Positions 7,854-44,048 of a stretch of DNA of 64,000 nt are shown here, piece after piece. The DNA comes from Acidobacteriota bacterium (GTDB lineage: Bacteria; Acidobacteriota; Terriglobia; Terriglobales; SCQP01). The notes under the pieces are model-generated. The model searched no databases, was not told the origin of the DNA, and saw nothing but the letters and a program-made list of their open reading frames with translations. Numbering within the stretch: position 1 is the stretch's first letter; each line of letters opens with the position of its first letter. The position numbers and the translations under genes are program-made. The stretch spans positions 213,842 through 277,841 of the forward strand of contig SCQP01000016.1 of the NCBI GenBank assembly GCA_004299485.1. Reading direction: 5' to 3'.

Positions 7854-8201
7854 ATGCGGGCTGCCGACGGACAAGTCTTCGCGATCACCGGCCTCTGCCG
7901 GCAATCCGATTTTCGCGTGCCGCTTGGGGACTGGAGTTTGGTCCACCTGGGAACCGCCGAGATCGGAGGCGGCGAGGAACCGTACCTGCTGGTGCGCCGA
8001 AGGATGGATAACGGAACCAGTACGGTGGTTTGCCGCATCGATTGGGAGGGCGTGTTTACGGTGCTGGCCGACGACGATACCGCTGCGGAGGCGCTGTTTC
8101 ACGATCTGGTCGATCCGGCGGCGCCGGAAGAAGTCCAGCGCCAGTGGACGGCTGAGGCGGACACGCTCGAGCAATATCGCGGCTGGCGGCAACAAGCATG
8201 A
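7854..8201 (+). CDS. Hypothetical protein
   Basis: 115-aa ORF. Its stop overlaps the start of the next gene (ATGA). Confidence 0.45.
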   Translation: MRAADGQVFAITGLCRQSDFRVPLGDWSLVHLGTAEIGGGEEPYLLVRRRMDNGTSTVVCRIDWEGVFTVLADDDTAAEALFHDLVDPAAPEEVQRQWTAEADTLEQYRGWRQQA

Positions 8202-8953
8202 GCGACTGCTACTTCGAGTTCTGCAACGTCTACAAAAGCTTTGGCTCGAATACGGTCTTGCGGGACGTGAGCTTCGAGGTGTGCCGCGGCGAAACCGTCT
8301 GCATTCTCGGGCGTAGTGGCGTCGGCAAGTCGGTCATGCTGAAGCTGATCATGGGCTTTCTCACGCCCGATAGCGGCCGGATACTGGTGGACGGGCAGTC
8401 GGTTCCGGATATGACCGAGGCCGAACGGAATGCCATGCACAAGAAGGTAACGCTGGTGTTCCAGTCCGGCGCTTTGTTCGATTCGCTCACGGTGGCCGAA
8501 AACGTCGCCTTTCCACTGCGCGAGCGGGGCATGCACGACGAAGAAGAGATCGCGCAGGTGGTGGACGGCCTGCTGGACATGGTCGAGCTGCGCGCCGAGC
8601 GGGAAGACTACCCGGCGAGCCTGTCGACCGGGATGAAGCGCGCCGTGGCCATCGCGCGGGCGCTGGCCGCCAAACCCCAGGCCATCCTCTACGATGAGCC
8701 CACGACCATGGTGGACCCGATCATGGTGCAGAAGATCGCCGCCCTGATCGTGCGCGTGAAACAACAGGTCAAGTTGACGAGCATAGTTGTTACGCACGAC
8801 ACCCGCCTGGCCCGGCGCCTGGCCGATCGCCTGGTGCTGTTGCACGAGGGCGAAGTCCGCTTTTTCGGCACCGTGGCGGAGATGGATGCCACCGCCGATC
8901 CGGTCGTCCGCGAATTCCTGCGGCAGGACGAGTGGGCGCTCAAGGCGGGCTGA
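8198..8953 (+). CDS. ABC transporter ATP-binding protein (MlaF/Ttg2A-like)
   Basis: Walker A 'GRSGVGKS', signature variant 'LSTGMKRAVAIARAL', Walker B 'ILYDEPT', and the Mla-type 'MVDPIM' region. Confidence 0.8.
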   Translation: MSDCYFEFCNVYKSFGSNTVLRDVSFEVCRGETVCILGRSGVGKSVMLKLIMGFLTPDSGRILVDGQSVPDMTEAERNAMHKKVTLVFQSGALFDSLTVAENVAFPLRERGMHDEEEIAQVVDGLLDMVELRAEREDYPASLSTGMKRAVAIARALAAKPQAILYDEPTTMVDPIMVQKIAALIVRVKQQVKLTSIVVTHDTRLARRLADRLVLLHEGEVRFFGTVAEMDATADPVVREFLRQDEWALKAG

Positions 8954-9521: not shown

Positions 9522-10847
9522 ATGCAGTTGAGAATCCCGCTCCTCGCCCCCGCCAGCAGGTTAATTGCCATCGCCCTATCGCTGTTCGGCGCTGGCTTGG
9601 CGTACGCGCAAATCCCCAATCTCACGGCTTCGACGGCGACGCCGTTACCCGAGCACGGCCATAGCTACATCAGCGCGCGGCTGCCGCAGGGCGACGATGC
9701 GGTGCAGGTGTTCGGCGGCGGCGTGAGCGAGTTCGTGAACCCGGCGACGGGATCGGTGAGTTGGCGCATTTGCACCACGCCGCCCAAAGGACGGCAGCTT
9801 TCGATCCCGTTCTGCTTCGTGTACGACTTCGCGGGCGTACACCATCTGGAAAACAACGCGCCGGGCAACCCGAGCTGGAATACGGACGCATCCTACCTCG
9901 AGCAGGGCGGCTGGACCTATTCGCTGCCGGAGCTGACGGAGGTGACGCGGCAGGAGGTGAACGGCAGCTATGTGTGCGACTACGCGACCGATTATATGTT
10001 CCGCGACAGCGAGGGCGGGCGGCACGCGATGGGGTTGTCGATTTTTGGTCCGGCGCCGGGCGCGCCCGCGAACTCGTGCTCCCAGGTGCAGCCGGCGCCG
10101 GGCGGGGTGACGACGGGCGGGGAGGGTGCGATTCTGGCGACGACGAGCGAGCCCAGCGGCAGCTTCAGCCTGCAGCCGGTAACGGTCACCGATGCCGACG
10201 GCACCCGCTACATCTTCAACGACCCCGGCAGGCAGGCGCTGGCGAACGGCTTCACGGCCGAGCTGCCCGACGTCATTGAAGACCGCAACGGCAACGAGAT
10301 CACCCTCACGGACAGCGGCAGTGGCAAGGTGACCGCGACCGACACGGTGGGCCGGGCGGCGGTGGCGACCTCGGGGTTTGGGGCAAGCGCGGGCGACAGC
10401 GTGCAGATTGCGGGCGAGAGCGCGGCCTATACGGTAGACTGGGGCACGGCGGCGTCGAGCTACAGCGTAGACAGCACGTCCGAGTCAGGAACGTGTACAG
10501 TGCCGGGAACGGTTTCGGGTTCGCAGCCCGTGGTGACCTCGATTGAGCTGCCGGACGGCGAGAGCTTCACCTTCCAGTACGATGCGACCTATGGGCTGCT
10601 CGACCGGGTGACGTTCCCAACGGGCGGCTACGTGCGCTACGTCTGGGGGATGAACGCGGCCGCCGAAGGCGGGCAGTTCGCCTCGACCAGCGGAACCTGC
10701 CTGGACCGCTACGGCGAGCCGGCGATCACGGCGCGCTACGTCAGCCTCGACGGGTCAAGTGAGGTTCTGGACCAGAGCTTTGCCTACGCGACCACCTGGC
10801 CATCGAGCGGGGCGGCGTGGAGCAGTAACGGTCACCAATCAGGATGA
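9522..10847 (+). CDS. RHS/YD-repeat protein, N-terminal part with Sec signal peptide (probably the 5' portion of a frameshifted gene)
   Basis: Signal-like N-terminus 'MQLRIPLLAPASRLIAIALSLFGAGLAYAQ'. The ORF ends inside the overlap with the next ORF, which continues the same type of sequence in another frame. Confidence 0.7.
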   Translation: MQLRIPLLAPASRLIAIALSLFGAGLAYAQIPNLTASTATPLPEHGHSYISARLPQGDDAVQVFGGGVSEFVNPATGSVSWRICTTPPKGRQLSIPFCFVYDFAGVHHLENNAPGNPSWNTDASYLEQGGWTYSLPELTEVTRQEVNGSYVCDYATDYMFRDSEGGRHAMGLSIFGPAPGAPANSCSQVQPAPGGVTTGGEGAILATTSEPSGSFSLQPVTVTDADGTRYIFNDPGRQALANGFTAELPDVIEDRNGNEITLTDSGSGKVTATDTVGRAAVATSGFGASAGDSVQIAGESAAYTVDWGTAASSYSVDSTSESGTCTVPGTVSGSQPVVTSIELPDGESFTFQYDATYGLLDRVTFPTGGYVRYVWGMNAAAEGGQFASTSGTCLDRYGEPAITARYVSLDGSSEVLDQSFAYATTWPSSGAAWSSNGHQSG

Positions 10848-13800
10848 AGTGCGGGGCGCAAGCGTCGCCACCGTTTACGCCTACTCCGGCTACACGGTGC
10901 CCTTGCAGCCAAACGACGCGACCGTTTCGACGCTGCAAATGCCGGTGGAGGCAACGATTACGGCCAAAGACTGGAACGGGGCGACGCTGCGGACAACGGC
11001 GGAAACGTGGAACAACCCGCGCGAGATGGCGTCGAAGGAAATTACCGAAGATGATGGCAAGGTGAGCGAGCAGACCTACTTTTACGATGCGAACGAACAG
11101 CAAACGGAAAGGGACGAGTACGACTACGGCTCGGGCGCGCCGGGCGCGCTCACCCGGGTGACGCTGCATACCTACGGTTGCGCGCCCGGCGTGCACATCG
11201 TGGACCGGCCGACGGTGGTTGAGATCGAGGGCAGCTCGCGGACGGTGACGGCGGAGACCGAGTACGCCTACGACCAGTCGCCGCTGGTGGCGAGCGGCGC
11301 CACCGATGGGCGCGATCCGGCCTACGGGGCCGGCCGGGGCATCACCGCGCGCTGCAACCTGACCACGTTGACCAAGGTTAACTACACCGGCAACATCAGC
11401 GAATCGTTTACGTATGACGATGCCGGAAATCGGCTCACCCACGCCGACGGCAACGGCAATACCACGAGCTTTGCCTATAGTTCGAGCGATCAGGCAGCCT
11501 ACCTTACCCAGATCACGCTGCCGAACACCACGACCGCGGGCAAGACCGTCCAGCACTCGTTCACCATGGCCTACGACAACACGACGGGTCTTGAGACCTC
11601 GCGCACGGACGTGCAGAACGCGACCACGACCAGCTTCACCTACAGCGATCCGCTCGACCGGCTCACCGGGCAGAACAATCCGGATGGCGGCAAGATCACC
11701 TACGCCTATACGGCCAACTCGGTCGAGACCAAAAAGCTGGCGATAAACTCCGCCTGGACCGACGCATTTGCGCACTGGGGTGGCCTGGGCAGTGCCGACC
11801 GCAAGCTGACGTACAACGGGACCAATTGGGACACGACCGACACGGCGTTCGACGGCGAGCAGATGCCACTGTATGTTTCCTATCCCTATTTTTCGAGCGG
11901 CATCGGCTCGACCAAGGCCACCAGCAACTCCACCGAGCCAGGCGACACGACCGCGTTTGATGGCCTGGGGCGCCCGACGCAGATCCTACACTCCGATGGA
12001 GGTACGATGACCATAGCTTACTCCGGTCCCAACCGGACGGTCACCGACGCCGCCGGACGGGCGCGCGAGGAGTTCTATGATGCACTCGGGCGTCTGGCCG
12101 AAGTGAAGGAGTTCACTGACGCCAGCGGCGACGGCTACGCCACCTACTATGGCTACGGTTCGCTCGATGACTTGAAGGCTGTGACCCAGGGCAGCGAGAC
12201 GCGCACGTTCGATTATGACAATCTCAACCGGCTGGTGGACGCGATCAACCCGGAAGGTGGAACAGTGGACTATACCTACGACAACGACGGCAACTTAATC
12301 AAGCAGCAGGACGCCAACGGCACCATCGAGAACTACACGTATGACGCGCTCAATCGTTTGCGCGCGCGCAGCTACACGGTGAGCGGCAAGACCGCGGCAA
12401 CGCCAGCGGTCGAGATCGACTACGACATCGACTCCACCGGTGCTGCGACCGATTACGCCACTGGCCGCATGACGCGGGTCATCAGCGGTTCAACTTCAAT
12501 TGGCATGGACCAGTACGATGCCATGGGCCGATTGCAGACCTATGACACCGTCGTGAGCAGCCAAACGTATCACACCAGCCTGCGTTACGACTATCTGGGC
12601 GACGCCGAGTGGGAGGAGCTGCCCGATGGGCGCGAGATTGACGCCACCACGGATTACGAAGGGCGGGCGAAGTTTTTGTCGGACCAGACGGCGAAGTACG
12701 ATTTCCTGCACTATCGGACCTACTCGCCGGCGGGCGGGCTGAGCGAAGAGGAGTTTGGCAACGGGCTGGTAGGGTACGTGGACTACAACAGCCGCCTGCA
12801 ACCGGTTCAGATCTCGGTCAAAAACCCCAGCGATCCGAGCGATAATACCTGGAGAATGAACCTCTCGATTGGATATACGGAGGCGGGGGTGCAGACGGCC
12901 GATAACGGCAACGTGGTTTCCCTGACGGATGCGCTCGGCAACGCGAGCCAGAACTACACCATGAATTACGACCATCTCAACCGATTGCTGAGCTGGTCGA
13001 TGGGAGGAGGTACGAGCTGTCAATTTGCGATTGATCAGTACGGCAACCTGGGTTTGTCGAGCGGCAGCGGCTGCGCGATGCTGAGCGGGCTGAGCTTCAA
13101 CGGCAACAATCAGATCGTGGGCTACACGTACGACGCGAGCGGGGATTTGTTGACGGATAACGCCGGGTCGAACTACGCCTGGGACGGCAACAGCCAGTTG
13201 GTGAACTTCTACACCGGGGGCGCAAGCGGCAGCTACGTGTACGACGGCCTGCTGCGGCGGGTGGAAAAGGCGGCGGACTCGGTCACGACCGTCTACGCGC
13301 GGGACGCGCTGGGCAACGTGGTGGCGAGCCTGACGAACGGCGTCTGGACGGACTACGTCTGGGCGAACCCGCCCGGGGCGGGCAACCGGATGGCCGCGGC
13401 GCCGGCGTCGCCGGATGCGGAGCGGATAGCGGCGGTGGTCGGCTCGGGGGTGGGCACGGTGTACTATTTCCACACCGACCAGGTCGGGACCACGCGCGCC
13501 GTAACCGACGAGAACGGCAACAACGTAGCCACGTGCGGGCAGAACGCGACGTACCCGAACGGGAGCTTTCTGACCTATGGCCCGTTCGGCATGCCGACGG
13601 GCTGCACGCAGACGGCGACGCCGATTCTGTTCACCGGGCACGAGCTGGACAGCGAATCGAACCTGAGCCAGTTCCAGTACCGCAAGTACGCGGCGCTGGA
13701 AGCCCGCTGGGCCACGCCCGACCCGGCCGGGGTGAACGGCCCGCCTGCGCCCTCGCCCAACGGCTTTGACCTCGGCCCGGCTGCCGCGGGCGCACCCGGC

Positions 13801-14088
13801 GATCTCGAACCCGAATCGCCCGTCGCGAGCTTGGCGACCCTGCCTGGCTTCGGCCTCCCGCTCGGTGGCGTCGACCCGCTTGAACCGCAGACATGGAACC
13901 CGTATGCGTATGTCGGCAATACGCCCGTAGTTTTCGTCGACCCGTCGGGACGATGGTGGGGCTGCGTAGCAATGAGCGTTGGCGCCCTAGGCTTTGGGCT
14001 TGCCGGCCTGGCCACGGCGGACCCGTTCCTCGGCGCTATTGGGTGGTCCCTCGGCGCCCACGCCCTGGCATGCCACTTTGTGATGTGA
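10759..14088 (+). CDS. RHS/YD-repeat polymorphic toxin, main body plus 44-aa C-terminal tip
   Basis: Many YD repeats (e.g. 'YTYDNDGNLIKQQDANGTIENYTYDALNRL'). RHS core end 'FTGHELDSESNLSQFQYRKYAALEARWATPDP' followed by 'NPYAYVGNTPVVFVDPSGR'. There is no credible start near 10759, so it is probably fused to 9522-10847 by a +1 shift near 10820. Confidence 0.85.
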   Translation: MRFWTRALPTRPPGHRAGRRGAVTVTNQDEVRGASVATVYAYSGYTVPLQPNDATVSTLQMPVEATITAKDWNGATLRTTAETWNNPREMASKEITEDDGKVSEQTYFYDANEQQTERDEYDYGSGAPGALTRVTLHTYGCAPGVHIVDRPTVVEIEGSSRTVTAETEYAYDQSPLVASGATDGRDPAYGAGRGITARCNLTTLTKVNYTGNISESFTYDDAGNRLTHADGNGNTTSFAYSSSDQAAYLTQITLPNTTTAGKTVQHSFTMAYDNTTGLETSRTDVQNATTTSFTYSDPLDRLTGQNNPDGGKITYAYTANSVETKKLAINSAWTDAFAHWGGLGSADRKLTYNGTNWDTTDTAFDGEQMPLYVSYPYFSSGIGSTKATSNSTEPGDTTAFDGLGRPTQILHSDGGTMTIAYSGPNRTVTDAAGRAREEFYDALGRLAEVKEFTDASGDGYATYYGYGSLDDLKAVTQGSETRTFDYDNLNRLVDAINPEGGTVDYTYDNDGNLIKQQDANGTIENYTYDALNRLRARSYTVSGKTAATPAVEIDYDIDSTGAATDYATGRMTRVISGSTSIGMDQYDAMGRLQTYDTVVSSQTYHTSLRYDYLGDAEWEELPDGREIDATTDYEGRAKFLSDQTAKYDFLHYRTYSPAGGLSEEEFGNGLVGYVDYNSRLQPVQISVKNPSDPSDNTWRMNLSIGYTEAGVQTADNGNVVSLTDALGNASQNYTMNYDHLNRLLSWSMGGGTSCQFAIDQYGNLGLSSGSGCAMLSGLSFNGNNQIVGYTYDASGDLLTDNAGSNYAWDGNSQLVNFYTGGASGSYVYDGLLRRVEKAADSVTTVYARDALGNVVASLTNGVWTDYVWANPPGAGNRMAAAPASPDAERIAAVVGSGVGTVYYFHTDQVGTTRAVTDENGNNVATCGQNATYPNGSFLTYGPFGMPTGCTQTATPILFTGHELDSESNLSQFQYRKYAALEARWATPDPAGVNGPPAPSPNGFDLGPAAAGAPGDLEPESPVASLATLPGFGLPLGGVDPLEPQTWNPYAYVGNTPVVFVDPSGRWWGCVAMSVGALGFGLAGLATADPFLGAIGWSLGAHALACHFVM
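12847..13913 (+). repeat. 1,067-bp direct repeat, copy A (inside the main RHS gene)
   Basis: Aligns colinearly with 14952-16018 at a constant offset of 2105 nt with no indels. Differences are scattered single-base substitutions. Confidence 0.9.
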
Positions 14089-14108
14089 TCCGCTCGGAGA
14101 GAGGCAAA

Positions 14109-14441
14109 ATGGAGACTCAATTTGACCCCCGGCGCGAGATCCAGGTTATTTGGGTCATGCTTGGTTTCATGGTCGTGGGTTGCGCTTTTATGGCTTGGTC
14201 CGTGGCTTCCGCATTTGCTGGCCCCGTGATGTGGACGATAGCGGTCGCGGTGGGTGCGCCTGCGGCGGTATTTGCCTTTTATCTGTCGAGCTTCCGTTCC
14301 AGCCTGCGTCGGATGGGCAGCACGGCTAGTTCCCAGGGGCAGCGATCTCTCATGAGGCTAATGGCAGCAGCGGCGTTTTATGTTGGGGCTGTCGGGTTAG
14401 CGGTCGGTGAGGCCATAGGCCGTGTACCAGGAGGACACTGA
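14109..14441 (+). CDS. Small membrane protein, candidate immunity protein for the RHS tip
   Basis: 110 aa from the ATG at 14109, preceded by 'ggagagagg'. Starts 21 nt after the RHS stop. About 3 hydrophobic helices ('VIWVMLGFMVVGCAFMAWSVA', 'VMWTIAVAVGAPAAVFAFYL', 'AAAAFYVGAVGLAVG'). Confidence 0.6.
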   Translation: METQFDPRREIQVIWVMLGFMVVGCAFMAWSVASAFAGPVMWTIAVAVGAPAAVFAFYLSSFRSSLRRMGSTASSQGQRSLMRLMAAAAFYVGAVGLAVGEAIGRVPGGH

Positions 14442-14796
14442 ACAGACAATGCCTGACGCTAAGAGTTCCACCGCCGCGCTGGCCTCCACGCACGTTCGGC
14501 GAACGTTTGCGCTCCTTGGGCTGGTACTGATGTTGGCCTGCACGAGCATATTTGATATAGAGCTGGTTCGGGGGTTTGGTGTACCGTTCGGCCCAGTGTT
14601 CTTGCTGCTGTTCATCGCCATCCAGGTATACGCGATATGGCTCTACATAACTCACGTCGCATCTGCTGGCTACGATCCAGATCCACAGGTTATTGCGACC
14701 TCGATCGGGCTGGAGGGCGCCTTCCTCCTACTGGCTATCACGACGTCAGCTATCTCTATCACCGGAGCCTACGTTCTCAGCCTTATCAAGGCTTAA
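14422..14796 (+). CDS. Small membrane protein (second immunity-like gene)
   Basis: 124-aa ORF (alternative ATG at 14449) with 3-4 hydrophobic helices. The DNA is visibly AT-richer than its surroundings. Confidence 0.55.
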   Translation: MYQEDTEQTMPDAKSSTAALASTHVRRTFALLGLVLMLACTSIFDIELVRGFGVPFGPVFLLLFIAIQVYAIWLYITHVASAGYDPDPQVIATSIGLEGAFLLLAITTSAISITGAYVLSLIKA

Positions 14797-14951
14797 AATG
14801 CGTGATCACCGGATCAATCGGCTTTTTAGTTGGTCCAGGGGCGTCTGCGCGGCGGGTCCCGGCGAGCCGCCGGCAGCGGGCGGGACGGATGGTGCGGGAG
14901 GGGCGGGGGGGCCCGGCGCTTGCGGGATGAGCCCAATCATCGCAGCAGTGC

Positions 14952-16018
14952 ACCTGGAGGATGGACCTGTCGATTGGGTATACGAAGGCGGGGGTGCAGA
15001 CGGCCGATAACGGCAACGTGGTTTCCCTGACGGATGCACTCGGCAACGCGAGCCAGGATTACACCATGAACTACGATCAGCTCAACCGTTTGCTGAGCTG
15101 GTCGACGGGAGGAGGCACGAGCTGTCAATTTGCAATCGATCAGTACGGCAACCTGGGTTTGTCGAGCGGCACGGGCTGCGCGATGCTGAGCGGGCTGAGC
15201 TTCAACAGCAACAATCAGATCGTCGGCTACAGCTACGACCCAAGCGGCAATTTGCTGACCGACAGCGCCGGGTCGAACTACACCTGGGACGGCAACAGCC
15301 AGTTGGTGAACTTCTACACCGAAGGCGCCAGCGGCAGCTACGTCTACGACGGTCTACTGCGGCGGGTGGAAAAGACGGCGGACTCGGTGACAACCGTCTA
15401 CGCGCGCGATGCGCTGGGCAACATGGTTGCGAGCCTGACGAACGGCGTCTGGACAGACTACATCTGGTCGAACCCGCCGAAAGCGGGCAACCGCGTGGCC
15501 GCAGCGCCGGCATCGCCTGAGGCCGAGCGGATCGCCGCGGTGGTTGGATCCGGGGTGGGCACGGTGTACTACTTCCATACCGACCAGGTCGGGACGACGC
15601 GCGCCGTGACCGACGAAAACGGCAATAACGTGGCCACGTGTGGGCAGAACGCGACGTACCCGAATGGGAGCTTTCTGACGTATGGTCCGTTCGGCATGCC
15701 GACGGGCTGCACGCAGACGGCGACGCCGATTCTGTTTACCGGCCACGAGCTGGACAGCGAATCGAACCTGAGCCAGTTCCAGTACCGCAAGTACGCCGCG
15801 CTGGAAGCCCGCTGGGCCACGCCCGACCCGGCAGGCGTGAACGGCCCGCCGGCGCCATCGCCCAACGGCTTTGATCTGGGCATAACCGCCGCGGGCGCGC
15901 CCGGCGACCTCGAACCCGAATCGCCCGTCGCCAGCCTGGCGACCCTGCCCGGCTTTGGCTTGCCGCTCGGTGGCGTCGACCCGCTCGAGCCGCAGACCTG
16001 GAACCCCTATGCATACGT
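14952..16018 (+). repeat. 1,067-bp direct repeat, copy B (orphan RHS cassette)
   Basis: Homologous to 12847-13913. Homology starts at acctggag and decays after tatgc(a/g)ta(c/t)gt. Confidence 0.9.
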
Positions 16019-16187
16019 GGATGGCGACCCGGCGTCTGGTTTCGATCCCGACGGCCGCTGGAACTGGTGCCTCACCGGAACAGTCGTGTCTATCGGCCTG
16101 AAGGTCTGGGGTATGACAGGGAACCCAATCGCCTTCGCCGCCGGTTGGTACCTCGGCGGCTATGTCGCTTTTGCGTGCCTCAAATGA
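14961..16187 (+). CDS. Orphan RHS C-terminal fragment with alternative 42-aa tip
   Basis: The 408-aa ORF duplicates the last ~355 aa of the RHS shell and core ('MDLSIGYTKAGVQTADNGN...FTGHELDSESNL...'). It then diverges to 'FDPDGRWNWCLTGTVVSIGLKVWGMTGNPIAFAAGWYLGGYVAFACLK'. The ATG at 14961 corresponds to an internal Met of the main gene, so independent translation is uncertain. Confidence 0.75.
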   Translation: MDLSIGYTKAGVQTADNGNVVSLTDALGNASQDYTMNYDQLNRLLSWSTGGGTSCQFAIDQYGNLGLSSGTGCAMLSGLSFNSNNQIVGYSYDPSGNLLTDSAGSNYTWDGNSQLVNFYTEGASGSYVYDGLLRRVEKTADSVTTVYARDALGNMVASLTNGVWTDYIWSNPPKAGNRVAAAPASPEAERIAAVVGSGVGTVYYFHTDQVGTTRAVTDENGNNVATCGQNATYPNGSFLTYGPFGMPTGCTQTATPILFTGHELDSESNLSQFQYRKYAALEARWATPDPAGVNGPPAPSPNGFDLGITAAGAPGDLEPESPVASLATLPGFGLPLGGVDPLEPQTWNPYAYVDGDPASGFDPDGRWNWCLTGTVVSIGLKVWGMTGNPIAFAAGWYLGGYVAFACLK

Positions 16188-17653
16188 GCGGAGCCGAGCG
16201 GCGGTCCGCGAGCGCGCTGGCCTCCTTTTGGTTCTTAGTAGGCGCGCTGCTGGGCGGGCGGTGGCGCAGGACTCAGGCTCGCGGGGGTGCGCTGCCGCTT
16301 CTGGTGGGGTTGGCAGCCGGGATCACGCTGGGAGTTTCGCTGATTGCTCGCTTGCACGCGAACCTCAGCCCGGCGGCGTTCGATGGACGCATGGGCGAGT
16401 TGGGGCTGGGGTTGTGGGGCGCGTGGCTGGCGTCGGCGGCAATCCTGCGTGTGGACTTCGGGTGGCACGTGCCGCTGCGCCCGTGGGCCATCCGGCCTGG
16501 GTTCTGGGCTGGTTATACGGCCGCGGTTGCGCTGGCGCCGCTCACCGCTGTGGTCGCCGGCGGGTTTGTGGTCACTTTGGTCGCCGCGGTGCTTGCGTTG
16601 CGGCCTTCTGCAGGTGGGGCGCTGCTGCTGGTGGCGGCGCTTTCGCTATTGTTCTTTGCTACGCTGCGCGTGACGCATTTGGCGCTGGTGCTACTCCGAC
16701 CGGGCGGAGCCGTCGTTGAGCGCATGGCCGGGCTCGCCATTGCCCTTGGGCTGGCAACCTGGAACTGGCTGGCAGGAGGCCTGGTGCCGCTGCATTGGGT
16801 GGGACAGCGTGCGGGCGGCGTGGCGGAACTGCTCGGATTGCTTTTGGCGGTTTGTGCTGCGGACGGCTGGCTCACGCGACGCGTCCTGCTGCAAGGACTG
16901 GCAGGGCGGCAGCGGGAAGTGATTCGCACCGGAGCGTTGGGTGCAGGCGCGGGTCCGGCTGCGGCCCTCCGCCGCGCGGCGCTGATTGGCTGGTTGCGGC
17001 ATGCCAACATCGACTTCGCGTTAGCCTTCGGCGCGCTTTGGCTCCCGATATTCGCCCTGCTCGCGCCCGGTACAATGCAGCCGGGGATGCCGATTGCCTT
17101 CTGCGGCTTTGCGCTGCTTTTCCTTTCGCTAGTGCGCGGGAATCTGCTTGGCATTGACGGCGCCGGAACCTGGCGCCATGCGTCGGCCGCGGTGGCGCCA
17201 TGGCAAGTGCTTTTGCAGCGCGGGCGGGTGCTGGATTGGATCGAAATTGTCGTCCTTGCGCCGACGCTGGCTCTTTCGGTGGCCCAGCGGCCCGGGGGCT
17301 GGACGGGGATCGTGGCGACAGTCGCGTTCGCGGTGAGCACTATTTCCTCGCAAGGCGCGGCGGGGTTGTTGCTGTCGTGCGCCTACCCGGAGCCGGTAGA
17401 GCGCTCGGATTTCCGCTCCGGAATGAATGCGACCGGAGGGAATTGGATTCTGCTGGGCACCATGATCTGGACGGTAGGCTTCCTGCTTGCATTTCTGCGC
17501 ACCTGGCCCGGCGCCGCGGCGTGGATCTGGCCGGCAGCGCTTGCCGGGGTCTGCCTGCTGATCCGGGAGGCGGTGGTCCGGCGTTTAAAGAGTCAGCTTG
17601 CGACTACCTGGCCGGCGCGGGTGCTGGCGCGGATGGGAGCGGTGCTGTCGTGA
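16184..17653 (+). CDS. Large polytopic membrane protein (putative ABC-exporter permease)
   Basis: About 490 aa from the ATG at 16184, which overlaps the orphan RHS stop (ATGA). At least 10 hydrophobic segments. Followed by an ABC ATPase with a GTGA overlap. The track ORF begins at 16067 inside the RHS fragment. Confidence 0.65.
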   Translation: MSGAERRSASALASFWFLVGALLGGRWRRTQARGGALPLLVGLAAGITLGVSLIARLHANLSPAAFDGRMGELGLGLWGAWLASAAILRVDFGWHVPLRPWAIRPGFWAGYTAAVALAPLTAVVAGGFVVTLVAAVLALRPSAGGALLLVAALSLLFFATLRVTHLALVLLRPGGAVVERMAGLAIALGLATWNWLAGGLVPLHWVGQRAGGVAELLGLLLAVCAADGWLTRRVLLQGLAGRQREVIRTGALGAGAGPAAALRRAALIGWLRHANIDFALAFGALWLPIFALLAPGTMQPGMPIAFCGFALLFLSLVRGNLLGIDGAGTWRHASAAVAPWQVLLQRGRVLDWIEIVVLAPTLALSVAQRPGGWTGIVATVAFAVSTISSQGAAGLLLSCAYPEPVERSDFRSGMNATGGNWILLGTMIWTVGFLLAFLRTWPGAAAWIWPAALAGVCLLIREAVVRRLKSQLATTWPARVLARMGAVLS

Positions 17654-18465
17654 GCGCGGCGATCGAGTTGCGGGAGGCGAGCAAGCGCTACGGCGATTGG
17701 GGGCGCTTTGCGGTTGAAGCGCTGTCGTTCGCGGTCGAGACGGGTACAGTGCTGGGCCTCGTGGGCCCGAATGGCGCCGGCAAGACGACGACTATATTTA
17801 TGCTTGCGGGCTTGCTGGAGCCGAGCGCGGGAACGCTACGGGTGCTGGGGCGTGAGGTGCGGCCGGGGCTCGGCGACCCGCGCGTGGGGCTGGTATCCGG
17901 CTCGCTCGAGGAATTCGACTATTTGACGGGGACGGAGTCAGTGATCCTGGTGGGACGTCTGCTGGGGCTGCCGGGCCGGGAGGCGGCGCGGCGGGCGGAG
18001 GCGCTGCTGAAGCTATTCGATCTTGGTGGGGCGGAGAACGGCCTGTTGCCGACTTATTCTTCCGGGATGAAGCAGAAAATCCGGGTTGCATGCGCGCTCG
18101 TGGGCACTCCGGAGGTGCTGCTGCTGGATGAGCCGTTCGAGGCACTGGATATTACGGCGAGCGCGATTTTGGCCGAAATCATCCGGCGGTTTGCAGCGGG
18201 CGGGGGAACGGTGCTGCTCGCCAGTCATGATCTGCGGCTGGTGGAGCGGGTGGCGACACATTACGCGATCCTGAAAGCCGGGCGGCTGGTCGAGACCGGC
18301 AGCCTGAGCGCGCTCGCCAGCGGCACGGCCGACGGGGGCGGAGGGCACCCGGCGCTGGAGCAGCGGTTCTGGGAGCTGACTGGGCCGCCTGCGGTTCCCG
18401 AACTTGACTGGCTGCGGCAAGGGAGTGAGGGCTCCGCCTGTGCCGGCGAGCCCGCGGGAAGCTGA
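17650..18465 (+). CDS. ABC transporter ATP-binding protein (ABC-2/DrrA-like)
   Basis: Walker A 'GPNGAGKTT', signature 'YSSGMKQKIRVA', Walker B 'LLLDEPFEALD', H-loop 'LASHD'. The GTG at 17650 overlaps the upstream stop; the track ORF starts at 17200. Confidence 0.8.
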   Translation: MSAAIELREASKRYGDWGRFAVEALSFAVETGTVLGLVGPNGAGKTTTIFMLAGLLEPSAGTLRVLGREVRPGLGDPRVGLVSGSLEEFDYLTGTESVILVGRLLGLPGREAARRAEALLKLFDLGGAENGLLPTYSSGMKQKIRVACALVGTPEVLLLDEPFEALDITASAILAEIIRRFAAGGGTVLLASHDLRLVERVATHYAILKAGRLVETGSLSALASGTADGGGGHPALEQRFWELTGPPAVPELDWLRQGSEGSACAGEPAGS

Positions 18466-39576: not shown

Positions 39577-41713
39577 GCGCCGCCAGCACGCGCACCAGGC
39601 GGCTGCACGCGGCCGGGCTTTGGCCGGCGTGGGCGGTGATGCGCAGCCGCGCCGTGCCCTCGGGCACGGTGGGCGGCCGAATGGCGCGGACGTCCAGGCC
39701 TTCGGCGGCGAGGGCAGCTTCGAGCTTCAGCGCCGCCGCGTCGCTGCCGGCAATCACGGGGATGATGGGCGAAGCGGGAGCGCCGAGCGTCGCCAGGCCG
39801 GCGTCGGCCAGCTCGGTGCGGATTTGGCACGCGCGCGCGAGCACCTGCTCGCGCCGCTGGGGCTCGCGCCGCACCGCATTCAGCGCGGCGGTGAGTTGCA
39901 CCGCCAGCAGCGGCGCCGGCGCGGTCGAGTAAATGAAGCTGCGGCTCTGATTCACGAGGTGCTCGATGAGGCGCCGCGAGCCGGTCACCAGCGCGCCGCT
40001 GGCGCCCATAGCTTTGCCGCAGGGATGCAACACGGCCGCGGCGGCGTTGGCAACCGCCTCGCCCGCGGCGGCGACGCGGCCGGCGCCTTCAGGGCCATAC
40101 AAGCCCAGGGCGTGGGCTTCATCCACGATCAGGCCGGCGTGGTGCTGGCGGCACAATTCCGCGATGGCTTCGAGCGGCGCGAAGTCGCCATCCATGCTGT
40201 AGACCGACTCGATCACCACCCAGCGGCGCTGCTTGCCGACGGCGGGATAGCGGCGCAACCGTTCGGCCAGCGCATCGGCGCTGACGTGGGGCACGAGCAC
40301 CCGCCGCGCGCCTGCGGCGCGGATGCCTTCAATCAGGCTGGCGTGGTTGCGCTCATCGGAAAATACAATGTCGCCACGGCCGACCAGCGCGGTGATCACA
40401 CCCAGTCCGGCGGTGTAACCGGAGCTATACAGCAGCGCCGCCTCGCGGTTTTGCCAGGCGGCGAACTCGGCTTCGAGCTCGACGATGGCGGCGTGGTTGC
40501 CGCGCACGAGGCGCGAACTGGTGGAACCCAGTTCCAGGCCCTGATCCAGGGCCTCGACCATCGCCGCCCGAATGCCCGGATGCTGGCTCAGGCCGAGATA
40601 GTCGTTGGAGCAAAAATCCTCGCCCTCGGCGGCCCGCAGCCGGCGGCGGCGCTGGCGTTGTTCGCGCTCGGCGAGTTCTTCATCCCAGGCCCGCTCCAGT
40701 TCCGCGAGGCCGGAGGAGAGGGAAGAGGGAAGAGGGAAAAGGGAAGTCGCAACGGGCGCCGGTTCCGGGTCCAGCCCGAGCTTCGCCAGCAGCGCGTGAT
40801 CGTGATCCTCGCCGGGATTCGGCGTGGTGAGCAGCTTCTCGCCTACGAAGATCGAATTGGCGCCAGCGTAGAAGCAGAGCGCTTGCGCTTCGTCGCTGAG
40901 CGCCAGCCGGCCGGCGCTGAGGCGCACGCGCGAATCGGGCATCAGCATGCGCGCGGTGGCGATGGCGCGCACCAGCTCGAAGCAATCGACCGGCATGTTT
41001 TCCGCCAGCGGCGTGCCTTCGACCGCGACCAGCGCGTTAATCGGCACGCTCTCGGGCGGCGGATTCATATTCGCCAGCGTGAACAGCAGCCGCACGCGGT
41101 CGGCGTCGGCTTCGCCCAGACCCAGAATGCCGCCGCAGCAAACCGAAATGCCGGCGCCGCGGACGTGTTCGAGCGTGCGCAGGCGATCTTCATAGGTGCG
41201 CGTAGTGATGATGTGGCCGTAGAACTCGGGTGAGGTGTCGAGGTTGTGGTTGTAGGCGGTGAGGCCGGCGTCGGCGAGCTGCTGCGCCTGCTCGGCGTTG
41301 AGCATGCCGAGGGTACAGCAGACTTCCATGCCTAAGCCGGCCACGCCGCGCACCATCTCCAGTACGCGATCAAAGTCGGCGCCCTCTTTGACCTGCCGCC
41401 AGGCCGCGCCCATGCAGAAGCGGCTGGAACCGCCCGCGCGCGCCTGCTCGGCCGATTGCATCACGGTTTCCAGGTCGAGCAGTTTGCCGGCTTCGACGCC
41501 GGTGTGATAGCGGGCGCTCTGCGGGCAATAGGAACAATCCTCCGGACAGCCGCCCGTCTTGATGGACAGCAGATGACACATCTGGACGGAGTGGTGGCGC
41601 TGGTGCTGGCGGTGGACTTCGTGGGCTTGCTCAATCAGCTCCAGGAGGGGTTGATTGTAGATATTGGATACATCTTCTACGGTCCATTTCGGAGCAGTGG
41701 TCGCAGTAGCCAT
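39569..41713 (-). CDS. Fused biotin synthase / 8-amino-7-oxononanoate synthase (BioB-BioF)
   Basis: The N-terminal half carries radical-SAM '[11 protein letters not shown]' and '[11 protein letters not shown]'. The C-terminal half carries '[14 protein letters not shown]' and a BioF-like PLP region. It is a single uninterrupted 714-aa ORF; the junction '[13 protein letters not shown]' is encoded by a heptamer array. Confidence 0.8.
40712..40746. repeat. Tandem heptamer array (AGGGAAG x 5) inside the bioB-bioF junction
   Basis: ggaggag agggaag agggaag agggaaa agggaag on the + strand, which is the template strand of the gene. Confidence 0.85.
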
Positions 41714-41799
41714 GGTTCGTAGACCATGATACCGCCTGGAAACGGCGGTGGTGTAACCGTGTCTTTGGCCGGGGCGTTCTCAGAAGTGAAGGCAGAGAA

Positions 41800-43218
41800 A
41801 TGGCAACCGAAAAGCACCCACGCTCCTTGCTGCATGCGCGCAGCTTCCAGGTTCTGGCAGCGGTAGTGGTGGTGATTATCGTGGCCATTGTACTGGTCGC
41901 CAACCGCTCATCGGCGCCGACGTATTTCACGGCGGCGGTGCGGACCGGCAACATTACTTCCGTAGTGCAGGCAACTGGGGTGGTCAACCCGATCAACACC
42001 GTCTCGATTGGCGCGCAGGTGTCGGGCCGGATCACCAAGATCAACGTGGACTTCAACTCCAGGGTCAAGAAGGGCGAGTTGATCGCGCAGATCGACCCGA
42101 CGCCCTACGAGAATGCGCTGGCGGCCGCCAAGGCCGATCTCGCCAACGCCCAAGCGCAGGTAGGCGTGGCGCAGGCCAACGTACAGGATGCCAAGGCCAA
42201 AATCGAGCAAGCCCAGGCCGCGCTGCAGCAGGCGACGTTGCAGCGCGACCGCAGCGTGAGCCTGTACCAACAGGGCATTGTGTCCGCGGCCCAGCGTGAT
42301 ACCGATGTCGCCACCTTTCAGACCGATCAGGCCGCGCACTCCAGCGCGCAGGCGGGCCTGGCGCAGACGGAAGCGGCGCTCAAGTCCGCTCAGGCTGCGG
42401 CCAAAGGCAAACAAAGCCAGGTCACCACCGCGGAAACCAATCTCGGTTACTGCAATATTTACGCCCCGGTCGACGGCGTGATCATCAACCGCGCGGTCGA
42501 TGCCGGCCAGACGGTCGCCAGCTCGTTTTCGGCGCCGCTGCTGTTCAGCGAAGCGACCGATCTGGATACGATGTGGGTCTACATGCAGACCGACGAGAGC
42601 GACGAAGGCCGCCTCAAAGTTGGCGACCCGGCGACGTTCACGGTGGATGCTTATCCGGATACCTCGTATCGCGGCGTGGTGAAGCAATTGCGCATGAACG
42701 CCACCACGGTGCAGAACGTGGTCGAGTACGACACCATTATTGAGTTCAAGAATTCCGGCCAGAAGCTGTTCCCCGGCATGACCGCCTACGTGAACATTCC
42801 CGTGGCCAGCGCCCTGAACACGCTGGAAGTGCCCAATTCGGCGCTGCGCTTCAAGCCCAGCCTGACGCCGGTTCAATTGCGCACGCTGCTGGGGCAGTAC
42901 GGCATGCAGGATAGCGGCAACGGCGCGCCGCAGGCGAAACCCGCGGCGGGGGCGCACGCGCCAGGCCAGCACGCCACGCATCCGCAGGTGGCCGGTGGAC
43001 AGACTAACCGTCCCACCACGGCGATTCTCTGGACGCTGGACGCCAACCACAAGCTGGTTCCGGTCAAGGTGCGCACCGGAATCACCGATTTCACCCACAC
43101 CGCCGTCACGCAGGTGCTGCAAGGACAACTGAAAGCCGGCGACAAGGTGGTGACCGGCGAGCTGGCGAAGACGGCCAGCGGCCTGCCGGGCGCGGGCGGC
43201 GGACGCCCGGGCCGCTAA
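41800..43218 (+). CDS. Efflux transporter periplasmic adaptor (HlyD/MacA family)
   Basis: N-terminal TM, long coiled coil rich in A/Q, and beta-barrel region '[20 protein letters not shown]'. Confidence 0.85.
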
Positions 43219-43232
43219 CGGAGGGTAAGACC

Positions 43233-44048
43233 GTGAACGAAGTCCTGACCAGCACGGAAGTGATATTCGCCGGCGAGGCGCAGGCGATTCCTGTGATTGC
43301 GGTGGCCGGCGTCCACAAGATCTACGATCTCGGCGAGGTGCAGGTGCCCGCGCTGCGCGGGGTGGATATTGTGATCCACAAGGGCGAGTTCGTGGCCATC
43401 ATGGGCGCGTCCGGCGGCGGCAAAAGCACGTTCATGAATGTCATCGGCGGTCTGGATCGACCCACGCGCGGCTCATACAAGCTCGACGGTGTCGATGTCT
43501 CGACCCTCGACAAGACCGAGATGGCCCATATCCGCAACCGCAAGATCGGCTTTGTCTTTCAGGGCTTCAATCTGCTGAGTCGCACGACGGCGCTCGAGAA
43601 CGTCGAGCTGCCGGCGCTCTACGCCCGCATGCCTCTTGCCGAGCGCAAGGAGCGCGCGCGCGAGGTGTTGCGCATCGTCGGCCTGGCGGAGCGCGAGGAC
43701 CACTACCCCAGCCAGCTCTCCGGCGGACAGCAGCAGCGCGTGGCCATTGCCCGGGCGCTGATGAATGGGCCTTCGCTGCTGCTGGCCGACGAGCCTACGG
43801 GCAATCTCGACAGCCGCACCAGCATCGAGATCATGGCCATTTTCCAGAAGCTCAACCGCGAGCACGGCATCACCATCGTGCTGGTGACGCACGAGCCTGA
43901 CATCGCCCAATTCGCCGCGCGCATTGTGTATTTCAAAGATGGCCGTATCCGCCGCGATGAGCCGGTGGCGCATCCCGCCGATGCCGCAGAAGAACTCCAG
44001 AAGCTGCCGGAAAATGGCGCCGAAGAGGAGGGGGAAGCCGAGGACTGA
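43233..44048 (+). CDS. MacB-type ABC transporter ATP-binding protein
   Basis: 'GASGGGKST', '[15 protein letters not shown]', '[11 protein letters not shown]', 'VTHEP'. Confidence 0.9.

What the first reader, a model, noticed from the sequence alone, without database searches (positions are those of the whole stretch)
9522..18465. Sec-dependent RHS polymorphic-toxin locus with an orphan tip cassette, small membrane immunity candidates and a coupled ABC exporter
In order, the locus contains:
- an RHS/YD-repeat protein of roughly 1,500 aa with a classical signal peptide rather than a PAAR or T6SS-type N-terminus;
- two small polytopic membrane proteins in AT-richer DNA;
- a duplicated 3' RHS fragment carrying a different but homologous tip;
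- a ~490-aa polytopic membrane protein and an ABC ATPase, joined to the orphan tip and to each other by ATGA and GTGA start/stop overlaps.
I saw no T6SS, T7SS or Tc-toxin partner genes in the window. An RHS shell combined with a peptide-sized hydrophobic payload and transporter-type putative immunity is not a textbook arrangement. I consider this the best candidate here for an undescribed toxin/immunity system.
Basis: partly seen in the sequence, partly recalled or inferred. Interest (0 to 1): 0.8.

Follow-up and report, generated by a model that had tools for sequence, protein, structure and literature searches.

The report
Acidobacterial RHS toxin with bacteriocin-like tips
A soil acidobacterium carries a secreted RHS "cocoon" toxin locus whose swappable payloads are tiny hydrophobic hairpin peptides. 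One payload type always travels with an undescribed ABC pump that elsewhere sits beside free bacteriocin-like peptides, so this is probably a new toxin/immunity variant.

Summary
The ~1,520-aa RHS gene is not intact here: an 8-bp deletion at 10827/10828 splits it into 441-aa and ~1,087-aa reading frames, whereas a 97.8%-identical sister strain has it intact.

The locus is a Sec-signal RHS/YD polymorphic-toxin locus in an Acidobacteriota (Terriglobales-like) MAG. It has a main tip, two small three-helix membrane proteins, and an orphan 3' cassette.

Both tips are 42-44-aa Gly/Ala-rich peptides bracketed by two Cys and match no Pfam or NCBIfam family. AlphaFold2 predicts the orphan tip as a helix-turn-helix (pLDDT 82).

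The decisive finding is comparative. Tips with the "GWYLGG...C" motif are immediately followed by homologues of the 489-aa permease and the DrrA-type ATPase in four independent lineages with different flanks. More distant permease homologues, all in Acidobacteriota, follow free four-Cys peptide precursors next to a C39 peptidase. The ABC pair is therefore tip-linked, not housekeeping, and is most likely an immunity pump.

The concept is partly known (Tox-WTIP, Tse5, orphan modules, Sec-type RHS). The tip family, the permease family and pump-type immunity are new. Nothing has been tested experimentally.

The parts
9522..10847 (+). RHS gene, frame A (441 aa). Holds the Sec-type signal peptide (9522-9608, cleavage predicted after AYA) and the conserved N-terminal domain. 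It ends at a premature TGA caused by the upstream frameshift.
   Evidence: Annotated in the MAG as EPN33_12315. Homologues P0003-P0031 share this N-terminal region.
10820..10835 (+). Frameshift site. There is an 8-bp deletion between 10827 and 10828 relative to the sister strain.
   Evidence: BLASTN alignment to L076 (97.8% identity over 10530-15253), which reads through as ...AAWSSKTTTVTNQDEV....
10828..14088 (+). RHS gene, frame B. Holds the YD-repeat shell, the RHS-associated core (about 13576-13953, ending ...VFVDPSGR) and tip 1.
   Evidence: P0002 (EPN33_12320) is 100% identical.
13954..14088 (+). Tip 1 (44 aa): WWGCVAMSVGALGFGLAGLATADPFLGAIGWSLGAHALACHFVM. Hydrophobic and Gly/Ala-rich, with Cys4 and Cys40.
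   Evidence: The Rhs_assc_core model ends at DPSG immediately before it. No Pfam or NCBIfam hit.
14109..14441 (+). Small membrane protein sm1 (110 aa, about 3 TM). Immunity candidate for tip 1. GAGAGAGG lies 6 nt upstream of its ATG.
   Evidence: Conserved with sm2 in the sister strain (L076/L077). Not annotated in the NCBI record.
14422..14796 (+). Small membrane protein sm2 (124 aa from GTG, or 115 aa from ATG 14449; about 3 TM). Second immunity candidate for tip 1.
   Evidence: (EPN33_12325).
14952..16187 (+). Orphan RHS 3' cassette (ORF from ATG 14961, 408 aa). It duplicates 12856-13907 at about 90% DNA identity. It has no signal peptide, no shell N-terminus and no convincing ribosome-binding site.
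   Evidence: Pfam and NCBIfam RHS core hits. EPN33_12330.
16059..16187 (+). Tip 2 (42 aa): WNWCLTGTVVSIGLKVWGMTGNPIAFAAGWYLGGYVAFACLK. Predicted helix(2-19)-turn-helix(23-41), with Cys4 and Cys40.
   Evidence: AlphaFold2 pLDDT 82. The same 'GWYLGG...C' tip type occurs in L003, L006 and L074.
16184..17653 (+). Polytopic membrane protein (489 aa). Permease partner of the ATPase and member of a rare Acidobacteriota-only family with no Pfam, NCBIfam or PDB relative. Its ATG overlaps the orphan stop codon (ATGA).
17650..18465 (+). ABC ATPase (271 aa), DrrA/ABC-2-type. Its GTG overlaps the permease stop codon (GTGA).
   Evidence: 68% identical to the L003 partner. Annotated too long (421 aa) in the NCBI record.

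Best explanation
This is a Sec-exported RHS/YD-shell polymorphic-toxin locus of a Terriglobales-like acidobacterium. Its exchangeable payloads are about 42-44-residue membrane-active helical-hairpin peptides rather than enzymes.

Shown:
- The RHS architecture and the orphan duplication.
- The 8-bp frameshift in the main gene.
- The lack of any known family for the tips and for the permease.
- Conserved tip-permease-ATPase synteny in four lineages.
- Distant permease homologues lying next to free Cys-bracketed peptide precursors and a C39 peptidase.

Inferred:
- The signal peptide takes the RHS to the periplasm, and an unknown route takes it beyond.
- The RHS core aspartyl autoprotease cuts after DPxGR and frees the tip inside the shell.
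- The two Cys at the open end of the hairpin form a disulfide.
- The released hairpin inserts into the cytoplasmic membrane of a competitor and dissipates its potential. This would be direct, or via a membrane-protein receptor as for class II bacteriocins and microcins.
- The producer is protected by membrane-embedded immunity. The small 3-TM proteins sm1 and sm2 would serve tip 1. For tip 2, a two-gene ABC pump (12-TM-class permease plus DrrA-like ATPase) would expel or sequester the peptide, in the manner of LanFEG or DrrAB.
- The orphan cassette is a stored alternative tip with its immunity genes, able to replace tip 1 by recombination across the about 1-kb, 90%-identical repeat.

In this particular genome the main gene is frameshifted. 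The locus may therefore currently provide only immunity.
For: RHS identity:
- Family matches.
- The core model ends exactly at DPSG/DPDG before each tip.

Polymorphism:
- Close relatives (59-76% identity) carry different small tips. Where downstream sequence is available (P0004, P0005) these are followed by unrelated small membrane proteins.
- The sister strain has an extra orphan module, with a Cys-rich tip and a soluble 159-aa protein, between sm2 and the tip-2 cassette.

Linkage of the ABC pair to the tip:
- L003: full-length 1,519-aa RHS, permease 38% and ATPase 68% identical, different neighbours.
- L006.
- L074.
- Window, L001 and L002.

Permease family:
- Only 23 cluster representatives among 1.84 billion proteins score E<=1e-3.
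- All 8 genome hits to its motif that are true permeases are Acidobacteriota.
- About 17 distinct loci have one to three free four-Cys hydrophobic peptide precursors directly upstream.
- One such locus has a C39 peptidase at E=3e-28 and a thioredoxin-like gene.

Other support:
- The ATPase's best matches are DrrA (4e-53). It also matches the lantibiotic-protection ATPase model at 2e-32.
- The tip is predicted as a helical hairpin.
- The tip-1 immunity candidates (sm1, sm2) have lower GC3, as expected of a mobile cassette; the tips are slightly lower.
- Precedents exist for membrane-active polymorphic tips: Tox-WTIP (and present in paralogue P0019), Tse5 and the CDI ionophores.
Against: - There are no experimental data on toxicity, cleavage, export or immunity.
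- The main gene is broken here and the orphan has no evident translation start, so no toxin may be made in this strain.
- The route across the outer membrane and into a target cell is unknown.
- Homology between RHS tips and the free peptides is not established. hhalign gives probability 1.7%. HMM-versus-shuffle tests give p of about 0.005 for one tip but 0.1-0.9 for the other three.
- ATPase scores are below the curated cut-offs of every named subfamily.
- The permease has no recognisable ABC-2 membrane domain, no internal repeat and no structural match, so its assignment as the transmembrane partner rests on synteny and gene overlap.
- A pump could equally be an exporter.
Confidence: 0.6

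Rival explanations
1. The locus is a decaying remnant in this genome. No RHS toxin is produced because the main gene is frameshifted and the orphan is untranslated. The small membrane proteins and the ABC pump persist only as 'orphan immunity' against toxins fired by relatives. This reading changes the locus's current activity, not what kind of system it is.
For: - An 8-bp deletion relative to the intact sister allele.
- The truncated 441-aa product was recovered in a second assembly.
- The orphan ATG is an internal Met of the ancestral gene, with GGAGG abutting it.
- L018 shows an RHS fragment fused to a permease remnant, so such loci do decay.
Against: - Apart from the deletion, both frames keep strong coding bias (GC3 0.82-0.85) and are 97.8% identical to the intact allele, so the lesion is recent.
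- It could be a minority variant or a MAG consensus artefact.
- A single recombination or reversion would restore function.
Confidence: 0.3
2. The permease and ATPase form a dedicated exporter or maturation pump for the hairpin peptide, as in bacteriocin ABC exporters, rather than an immunity device. Immunity would then be provided by something else.
For: - Strict adjacency to the peptide-encoding 3' ends.
- In the free-peptide clusters a C39 peptidase is present and precursors have GG motifs, which recalls bacteriocin export loci.
- No other immunity candidate follows tip 2 in the window.
Against: - The RHS has its own Sec signal and encapsulates its tip.
- The free precursors also start with signal-peptide-like hydrophobic segments.
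- The C39 domain is a separate protein, not fused to the transporter.
- The ATPase is of the DrrA/ABC-2 resistance type with a separate permease, not the fused ABC_membrane exporter type.
- In polymorphic-toxin loci the gene directly after the tip is, by rule, the immunity gene (PMC3150448, PMC3482391).
Confidence: 0.15
3. The hydrophobic C-terminal hairpins are not toxins but membrane anchors or targeting segments of a surface or periplasmic YD-shell protein with some other role. The downstream membrane proteins would be its partners.
For: - The tips are only two helices long and have no catalytic features.
- No toxicity data exist.
Against: - The tips sit after the conserved DPxG autoprocessing boundary.
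- They vary between close relatives while the shell is conserved.
- They are duplicated as orphan cassettes together with their downstream genes.
- Paralogues in the same RHS family carry HNH (PF01844), Tox-WTIP and other C-terminal domains at the same position.
Confidence: 0.05

Closest known systems
Sec-dependent ('T2SS-type') RHS polymorphic toxins, e.g. Bacillus subtilis WapA; class defined in Zhang et al. 2012 (PMC3482391)
   Same: - N-terminal signal peptide instead of PAAR, VgrG or LXG.
- YD-repeat shell and RHS core ending in DPxG.
- Variable C-terminal tip with the immunity gene immediately downstream.
- Acidobacteria are listed among the carriers.
   Different: - The known examples carry enzymatic tips (tRNases, nucleases, deaminases) neutralised by small soluble binding proteins.
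- Here the tips are 42-44-aa hydrophobic hairpins.
- The immunity candidates are membrane proteins or an ABC pump.
Tox-WTIP (PF15654), a predicted two-TM-helix pore-forming tip of RHS/PVC toxins
   Same: - A small, highly hydrophobic two-helix domain at the C-terminus of Sec-type RHS proteins.
- A paralogue of this RHS family (P0019) carries it.
   Different: - The window tips lack the RxxR and Wx[ST]IP motifs and do not hit PF15654 even at E<=10.
- They are bracketed by two Cys.
- Tox-WTIP had no assigned immunity family (PMC3482391).
Tse5 (PA2684), the T6SS Rhs pore-forming effector of Pseudomonas aeruginosa (PMC9637101, PMC10684867)
   Same: An Rhs cocoon encapsulating a hydrophobic, membrane-depolarising C-terminal fragment.
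   Different: - Tse5 is T6SS-delivered.
- By recollection rather than anything checked here, Tse5 also has a PAAR-type N-terminus, a much larger toxin fragment, and the small protein Tsi5 as immunity.
- There are no T6SS genes or domains here.
rhs/cdi orphan toxin-immunity modules (Poole et al. 2011, PMC3150448)
   Same: - A promoterless 3' fragment shares about 1 kb of homology with the main gene.
- It is followed by a distinct tip and its own immunity gene(s).
- The array varies between sister strains.
   Different: The immunity part of the orphan is a two-gene ABC transporter.
ABC-type bacteriocin self-protection pumps (LanFEG of lantibiotic producers; DrrAB-type ABC-2 resistance pumps)
   Same: - A separate ATPase whose best matches are DrrA and the lantibiotic-protection ATPase.
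- It is encoded with a polytopic permease right next to a membrane-active peptide gene.
- A pump mechanism is plausible for a peptide that acts from within the membrane.
   Different: - ATPase scores are below all curated cut-offs.
- The permease is a single 489-aa protein with no ABC2_membrane domain, no internal repeat and no PDB fold match.
- Such pumps have not, to my knowledge, been described as immunity for RHS or other polymorphic toxins.
CDI ionophore toxins (CdiA-CT; PMC11630599)
   Same: Polymorphic C-terminal toxins that act by inserting helices into the target membrane.
   Different: - They are five-helix bundles with entry domains, delivered by CdiA/CdiB.
- Their sequences are unrelated.

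Membership tests
RHS/YD-repeat polymorphic toxin | YD/RHS repeats forming the shell | tested here: met
   PF05593 E=9.4e-20 and TIGR01643 E=2.8e-11 on frame B. Also present in the orphan.
RHS/YD-repeat polymorphic toxin | RHS-associated core domain ending in the DPxG boundary motif | tested here: met
   TIGR03696 scores 51.7 and 54.1 bits against a cut-off of 32.5. The model's last positions align to ...VFVDPSG and ...GFDPDG directly before the tips. A roughly 50-aa Pro-rich insert splits the domain.
RHS/YD-repeat polymorphic toxin | Catalytic Asp pair for C-terminal autoproteolysis | tested here: inconclusive
   Asp residues are present in ...HELDSES... and ...TPDPAG..., read from the sequence. 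Their equivalence to the TcC/Rhs catalytic Asps was judged by eye only. Cleavage itself cannot be tested with these tools.
RHS/YD-repeat polymorphic toxin | Variable C-terminal tip with a cognate gene immediately downstream, differing between close relatives | tested here: met
RHS/YD-repeat polymorphic toxin | Intact full-length reading frame | tested here: not met
   An 8-bp deletion at 10827/10828 relative to L076. The gene is intact in the sister strain and in P0003.
T6SS Rhs effector | PAAR/VgrG-linked N-terminus, or T6SS, EagR or VgrG genes nearby | tested here: not met
   No such Pfam hit on the N-terminal 434-441 aa. No T6SS gene among 30 other ORFs of the 64-kb window.
Tc toxin BC component (TcB/TcC) | TcA partner and SpvB/TcdB N-terminal and middle domains | tested here: not met
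   No SpvB or TcdB hit on the window protein and no TcA-like gene in the window. Only distant database hits (P0061, P0063 and others) carry PF03534 or PF12256.
Tox-WTIP (PF15654) | RxxR in helix 1 and Wx[ST]IP in helix 2, with a match to the Pfam model | tested here: not met
   No hit at E<=10 for tips 1 and 2 and four related tips. The positive control, the P0019 C-terminus, hits at 4.6e-12.
Lantibiotic/bacteriocin protection ABC transporter (LanFEG-like) or DrrAB | ATPase reaching the curated subfamily threshold | tested here: not met
   TIGR01188 drrA scores 180.7 bits against a cut-off of 312. TIGR03740 scores 113 against 310. This shows resemblance, not membership.
Lantibiotic/bacteriocin protection ABC transporter (LanFEG-like) or DrrAB | ABC-2-type membrane domain in the permease | tested here: not met
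   None of 17 family members hits any Pfam family at E<=1. No PDB sequence match or fold match.
Lantibiotic/bacteriocin protection ABC transporter (LanFEG-like) or DrrAB | Confers producer self-protection against the adjacent peptide | not testable with these tools
   Only conserved synteny supports this.
Double-glycine-leader bacteriocins / class II microcins | Leader peptide with a GG cleavage site processed by a C39 peptidase | tested here: not met
   The RHS tips have no leader and are preceded by DPxGR. The free peptides next to distant permease homologues do have ...VGG motifs and a separate C39 peptidase, but they also have signal-peptide-like N-termini.

The most novel reading that the evidence does not exclude
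Acidobacteriota possess a lineage-specific class of Cys-bracketed (presumably disulfide-stapled) helical-hairpin membrane toxins deployed in two formats. One format is free one- or two-peptide bacteriocins, matured with a stand-alone C39 peptidase and a thioredoxin-like protein. The other is the encapsulated payload of a Sec-exported RHS cocoon. Both formats would be countered by the same previously undescribed ABC immunity pump, whose 489-aa permease represents a new membrane fold. RHS shells would then be a delivery vehicle for bacteriocin-class peptides, and pump-based immunity would join binding-protein immunity in polymorphic toxin systems.
Probability: 0.35. Interest if true: 0.75.

Novelty: new variant of a known kind. 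Interest (0 to 1): 0.6.

Why it matters
Polymorphic toxins and peptide bacteriocins are usually treated as separate arsenals. Polymorphic-toxin immunity is almost always a small protein that binds its toxin.

Here a rare Acidobacteriota-only transporter family follows RHS tips in four lineages and free Cys-bracketed peptides in about seventeen others. This suggests that one immunity machine, and perhaps one kind of peptide, is shared between the two arsenals.

If confirmed, the finding would provide:
- a new family of membrane-active peptides;
- a new ABC permease family and possibly a new fold;
- the first pump-type immunity for an RHS toxin;
- an entry point into interbacterial competition in Acidobacteriota, an abundant but experimentally neglected soil phylum.

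It also shows that public annotation misses the key genes. The permease and sm1 are unannotated in the source record.

Tried and rejected
- Word-index homology searches found only the permease itself and nothing for a two-tip alignment. The exhaustive HMMER search was needed to find relatives.
It was replaced by a back-translated motif scan for RGNLLG[IV]DxxGxW.
- Six of 14 genome hits, and 25 of the 50 metagenome hits that did not score as permease, were false positives or not the family. The six genome hits share the antisense-looking ORF '...NVRGRGNLLGVDGDAVWNAGEIC...'.
- Homology of RHS tips to the free peptides was tested three ways. hhalign gave probability 1.7%. HMM-versus-5,000-shuffle tests supported only the L006 tip (26/5000). 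I therefore claim a resemblance in size, hydrophobicity, Cys bracket (35-36 residues apart) and the AWY-x9-C motif, not homology. One of these runs silently reused old output and was discarded.
- No internal duplication was found in the permease.
- Fold searches found no significant match for the permease (best E=0.02, TM 0.27). Only generic hairpins matched the tip.
- sm1, sm2 and the small membrane proteins of L004 and L005 show no mutual similarity.
- My initial reading that the sister strain had 'swapped' tip 1 was wrong. L076 shows it keeps tip 1, sm1 and sm2 and has an additional orphan module.
- The promoter and terminator consensus scan was uninformative.

Full report
**Source and anatomy**

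The window comes from an Acidobacteriota MAG. The C-terminal RHS ORF is 100% identical to NCBI 'EPN33_12320 [Acidobacteria bacterium]' on a 408-kb contig.

On the + strand the region 9522-18465 contains, in order:
- An RHS/YD gene in two frames, 9522-10847 and about 10828-14088. Family matches: PF05593 9e-20, PF03527 8e-7, TIGR03696 1e-13.
- Two small hydrophobic ORFs, 14109-14441 and 14422-14796, each with about three TM helices.
- A 3' RHS duplicate, 14952/14961-16187.
- A 489-aa polytopic membrane protein, 16184-17653.
- An ABC ATPase, 17650-18465.

The last three are chained by ATGA and GTGA overlaps. The N-terminus MQLR...LFGAGLAYA|QIP reads as a Sec signal peptide, and the homologues have equivalent N-termini.

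The two small ORFs are compositionally foreign, with GC 59% and 55.5% and GC3 0.60 and 0.66, against about 0.8 in neighbouring genes. Thirty other ORFs across the window are housekeeping-type genes, such as AccC, aminotransferases, a histidine kinase, a MacAB-type pump and ferrochelatase. None is a T6SS, T7SS or Tc gene.

**Correction to the observation**

The RHS is not one ORF. Frame A stops at 10847 and the homologous reading continues in another frame.

A sister-strain contig (L076, GCA_040961365.1, 97.8% identical over window 10530-15253) reads straight through as '...AAWSSKTTTVTNQDEV...'. The window lacks 8 bp between 10827 and 10828. The truncated 441-aa product is also on record from a Logan assembly. 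The lesion is therefore probably real rather than an artefact of one assembler, although I could not inspect reads.

Both frames retain strong codon bias, so the lesion is recent.

**Orphan cassette and strain variation**

DNA from 12856-13907 is repeated at about 90% identity at 14952-16012. The two copies then diverge into different tips.

The orphan ATG corresponds to an internal Met of the main gene and has no properly spaced ribosome-binding site. This is the classical rhs orphan-module layout (PMC3150448).

The sister MAG has the same arrangement of main tip, sm1, sm2 and orphan start on L076. On a second contig (L001) it has an extra module between them. That module has a Cys-rich tip (LYRCICWLSLEVDYEGG...) and a soluble 159-aa protein, followed by the tip-2 orphan, the permease, the ATPase and the same aminotransferase. 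The array is therefore actively gaining or losing modules.

**The tips**

The Rhs_assc_core model ends at ...DPSG/...DPDG. The sequences that follow are:
- Tip 1: R|WWGCVAMSVGALGFGLAGLATADPFLGAIGWSLGAHALACHFVM
- Tip 2: R|WNWCLTGTVVSIGLKVWGMTGNPIAFAAGWYLGGYVAFACLK

They are about 35% identical, and each has Cys at positions 4 and 40. Neither tip, nor four related tips, matches any Pfam or NCBIfam family at E<=10.

AlphaFold2 on a three-sequence alignment predicts tip 2 as helix 2-19, a turn, then helix 23-41, with mean pLDDT 82. That geometry would bring the two Cys together. The disulfide is an inference.

Close relatives of the RHS (59-76% identity; P0003-P0006) that retain a C-terminus (P0003-P0005) also end in small hydrophobic, Cys-containing tips. 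More distant relatives (about 31-39% identity, for example P0015, P0019, P0022, P0026; all with signal-peptide-like N-termini) carry larger C-terminal regions, with Pfam hits to HNH (PF01844), PF14436 and Tox-WTIP in some.

**Is the ABC pair housekeeping? No.**

The permease has no Pfam, NCBIfam or PDB relative. An exhaustive HMMER search of 1.84 billion representatives finds only 23 proteins at E<=1e-3.

The closest members (37-46% identity) were traced to their contigs:

| Locus | What it shows |
|---|---|
| L003 | Intact 1,519-aa Sec-RHS ending ...DPDGRMRACVAG...AAGWYLGGALDLACGWK. It abuts or overlaps a permease homologue (38% identity), followed by an ATPase (68% identity). Flanking genes are unrelated. 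|
| L006 | RHS C-terminus ...DPDGRSRCGWARG...IAAWYAGGVISVACFSE, then permease, then ATPase. |
| L074 | ...DPDGTIEWCVVG...IGGWYLGGYLDLECNW, then permease 5 nt later, then ATPase. |

Together with the window lineage, that makes four independent occurrences of the order [GWYLGG-type tip][permease][ATPase].

By contrast, RHS relatives with other small tips are followed by unrelated small membrane proteins (L004, L005). In the window, the divergent tip 1 is followed by sm1 and sm2.

**The wider permease family**

A back-translated motif scan recovered 8 genuine members in species-representative genomes. All are Acidobacteriota: Acidobacteriaceae, Terriglobia, Blastocatellia and Thermoanaerobaculia. 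It also recovered about 25 more in metagenomes.

In about 17 distinct loci where upstream sequence exists, the permease and ATPase are preceded by free precursor peptides rather than an RHS. Each precursor has a signal-peptide-like N-terminus, a GG motif and a mature part of about 40 residues with four Cys. There are two recurring types:
- Type A: ...VGG-x-C-x17-SPCxxxCA..AWY-x9-C
- Type B: ...GGSDCSDFxDGFAVGMGI..LFGCxWC...C

These loci also carry a tiny TM peptide. Nearby genes include a stand-alone C39 peptidase (3e-28), a thioredoxin-like protein, and often a Yip1-like membrane protein downstream.

The RHS tips resemble type A in length, hydrophobicity, first-to-last Cys spacing (35-36 residues) and the (A/G)WY-x9-C ending. 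Statistical support for homology is weak. hhalign gives probability 1.7%. In shuffle tests only the L006 tip stands out (26 of 5,000), while the others give p of 0.1-0.9. I therefore treat the link as functional and positional, not as demonstrated common descent.

**Mechanism**

The best-supported reading is a Sec-exported RHS cocoon that autoproteolytically frees a membrane-active hairpin peptide. Producer protection would come from membrane-embedded immunity: small TM proteins for tip 1 and an ABC pump for tip 2.

I favour immunity over export for the pump for four reasons:
- Both the RHS and the free precursors carry their own export signals.
- The C39 domain is not fused to the transporter.
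- The ATPase is of the DrrA/ABC-2 resistance type, and it also resembles lantibiotic-protection ATPases.
- The gene immediately after a polymorphic tip is, by rule, the immunity gene.

These are inferences, and nothing has been tested experimentally. How the shell crosses the producer's outer membrane, and how the peptide reaches a target's inner membrane, are both unknown.

The permease model is confident (pLDDT 82, pTM 0.74). It has no significant PDB fold match and no internal repeat. Its role as the ATPase's membrane partner rests on gene overlap and invariant co-occurrence.

**Comparison with known systems**

Several elements are already known:
- Sec-type RHS toxins, including acidobacterial ones, and a two-TM-helix RHS tip (Tox-WTIP) were catalogued by Zhang et al. 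2012 (PMC3482391).
- Tse5 is an experimentally characterised Rhs pore-former (PMC9637101, PMC10684867).
- CDI ionophores are another polymorphic membrane-toxin class (PMC11630599).
- Orphan modules are classical (PMC3150448).

Three things are new here: the tip family, the permease family, and a transporter as the tip-linked partner that is shared with free peptide clusters. A full-text search found no report of ABC-pump immunity for an RHS toxin. That library is incomplete, so this absence is only indicative.

**Verdict**

The feature is real.

It is a new variant of a known kind of system. It is of moderate to high interest because it links the RHS and bacteriocin arsenals and exposes an uncharacterised, phylum-specific transporter family.

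Noticed in passing
L009, L012, L015, L016, L020, L023, L026, L031, L036, L037, L042, L050, L065, L069 (upstream of the permease homologue in each): An apparently undescribed Acidobacteriota gene cluster. It holds one to three small precursors with a signal-like N-terminus, a GG motif and a four-Cys hydrophobic mature peptide (two recurring types). It also holds a roughly 45-aa TM peptide, a stand-alone C39 peptidase, a thioredoxin-like protein, the permease and ATPase, and a Yip1-like membrane protein. It looks like a two-peptide bacteriocin system. None of the peptides hits Pfam or NCBIfam.
   Followed up: partly
window 16184-17653 and 14109-14441; 17200-18465: In the deposited MAG annotation the permease and sm1 are not called as genes. 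The ABC ATPase is annotated as a 421-aa protein that starts inside the permease gene (TAN21404.1). The homologue-supported start is the GTG at 17650.
   Followed up: yes
L076 and L001 (GCA_040961365.1) versus window 14797-14960: The sister strain carries an additional orphan module between sm2 and the tip-2 cassette. It has a Cys-rich 55-aa tip (LYRCICWLSLEVDYEGGFSDCIYGCFC...) and a soluble 159-aa protein. The window lineage lacks it, presumably through recombination between orphan repeats.
   Followed up: partly
window ~13745-13900 (protein ...PDPAGVNGPPAPSPNGFDLGPAAAGAPGDLEPESPVASLATLPGFGLPLGGVDPLEPQTW...): A Pro/Gly-rich insertion of about 50 aa splits the RHS-associated core domain between the PDPAG motif and the NPYAYV...DPxG boundary. 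It is conserved in the close Terriglobales relatives (P0003, P0004, P0005, L006, L074) and absent from the more distant homologues read. Its function is unknown.
   Followed up: no
L010, L011, L013, L014, L017, L021: Six acidobacterial genomes matched the permease motif by chance. The match lies in a shared ORF '...NVRGRGNLLGVDGDAVWNAGEICSHL...LKALIEHFLQIIVLPP...', which looks like the antisense translation of a conserved gene. It is not related to the permease family.
   Followed up: no
L018 (JBOGKJ010000325.1, Terriglobales MAG), oriented positions 1-1070: A mid-RHS fragment (...LGRLAEVREYTDSDGDHYSTYYGYGLLDDLKAVTQ...) lies directly next to a permease homologue that is split over two frames. 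This looks like a decayed remnant of the same kind of locus.
   Followed up: no
L007 3366-5186: Downstream of a free-peptide, permease and ATPase cluster lies a 606-aa protein with a weak PqqD/RRE-like match (E=0.0035) and a DDD motif. It may be a peptide-modifying enzyme, which would make some of these peptides RiPP-like.
   Followed up: no
L003 1-1818: Immediately upstream of the intact RHS in L003 is a fused ABC exporter (ABC_membrane plus ABC_tran, 605 aa). It is not conserved upstream of the window's RHS, where a MlaF-like ATPase (8198-8953) lies instead. Any relevance to RHS export is unknown.
   Followed up: no
window 41710-45272: A HlyD-type adaptor, an ABC ATPase and a MacB/FtsX permease form a MacAB-like tripartite efflux operon about 23 kb from the locus. 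There is no evidence of a connection.
   Followed up: no
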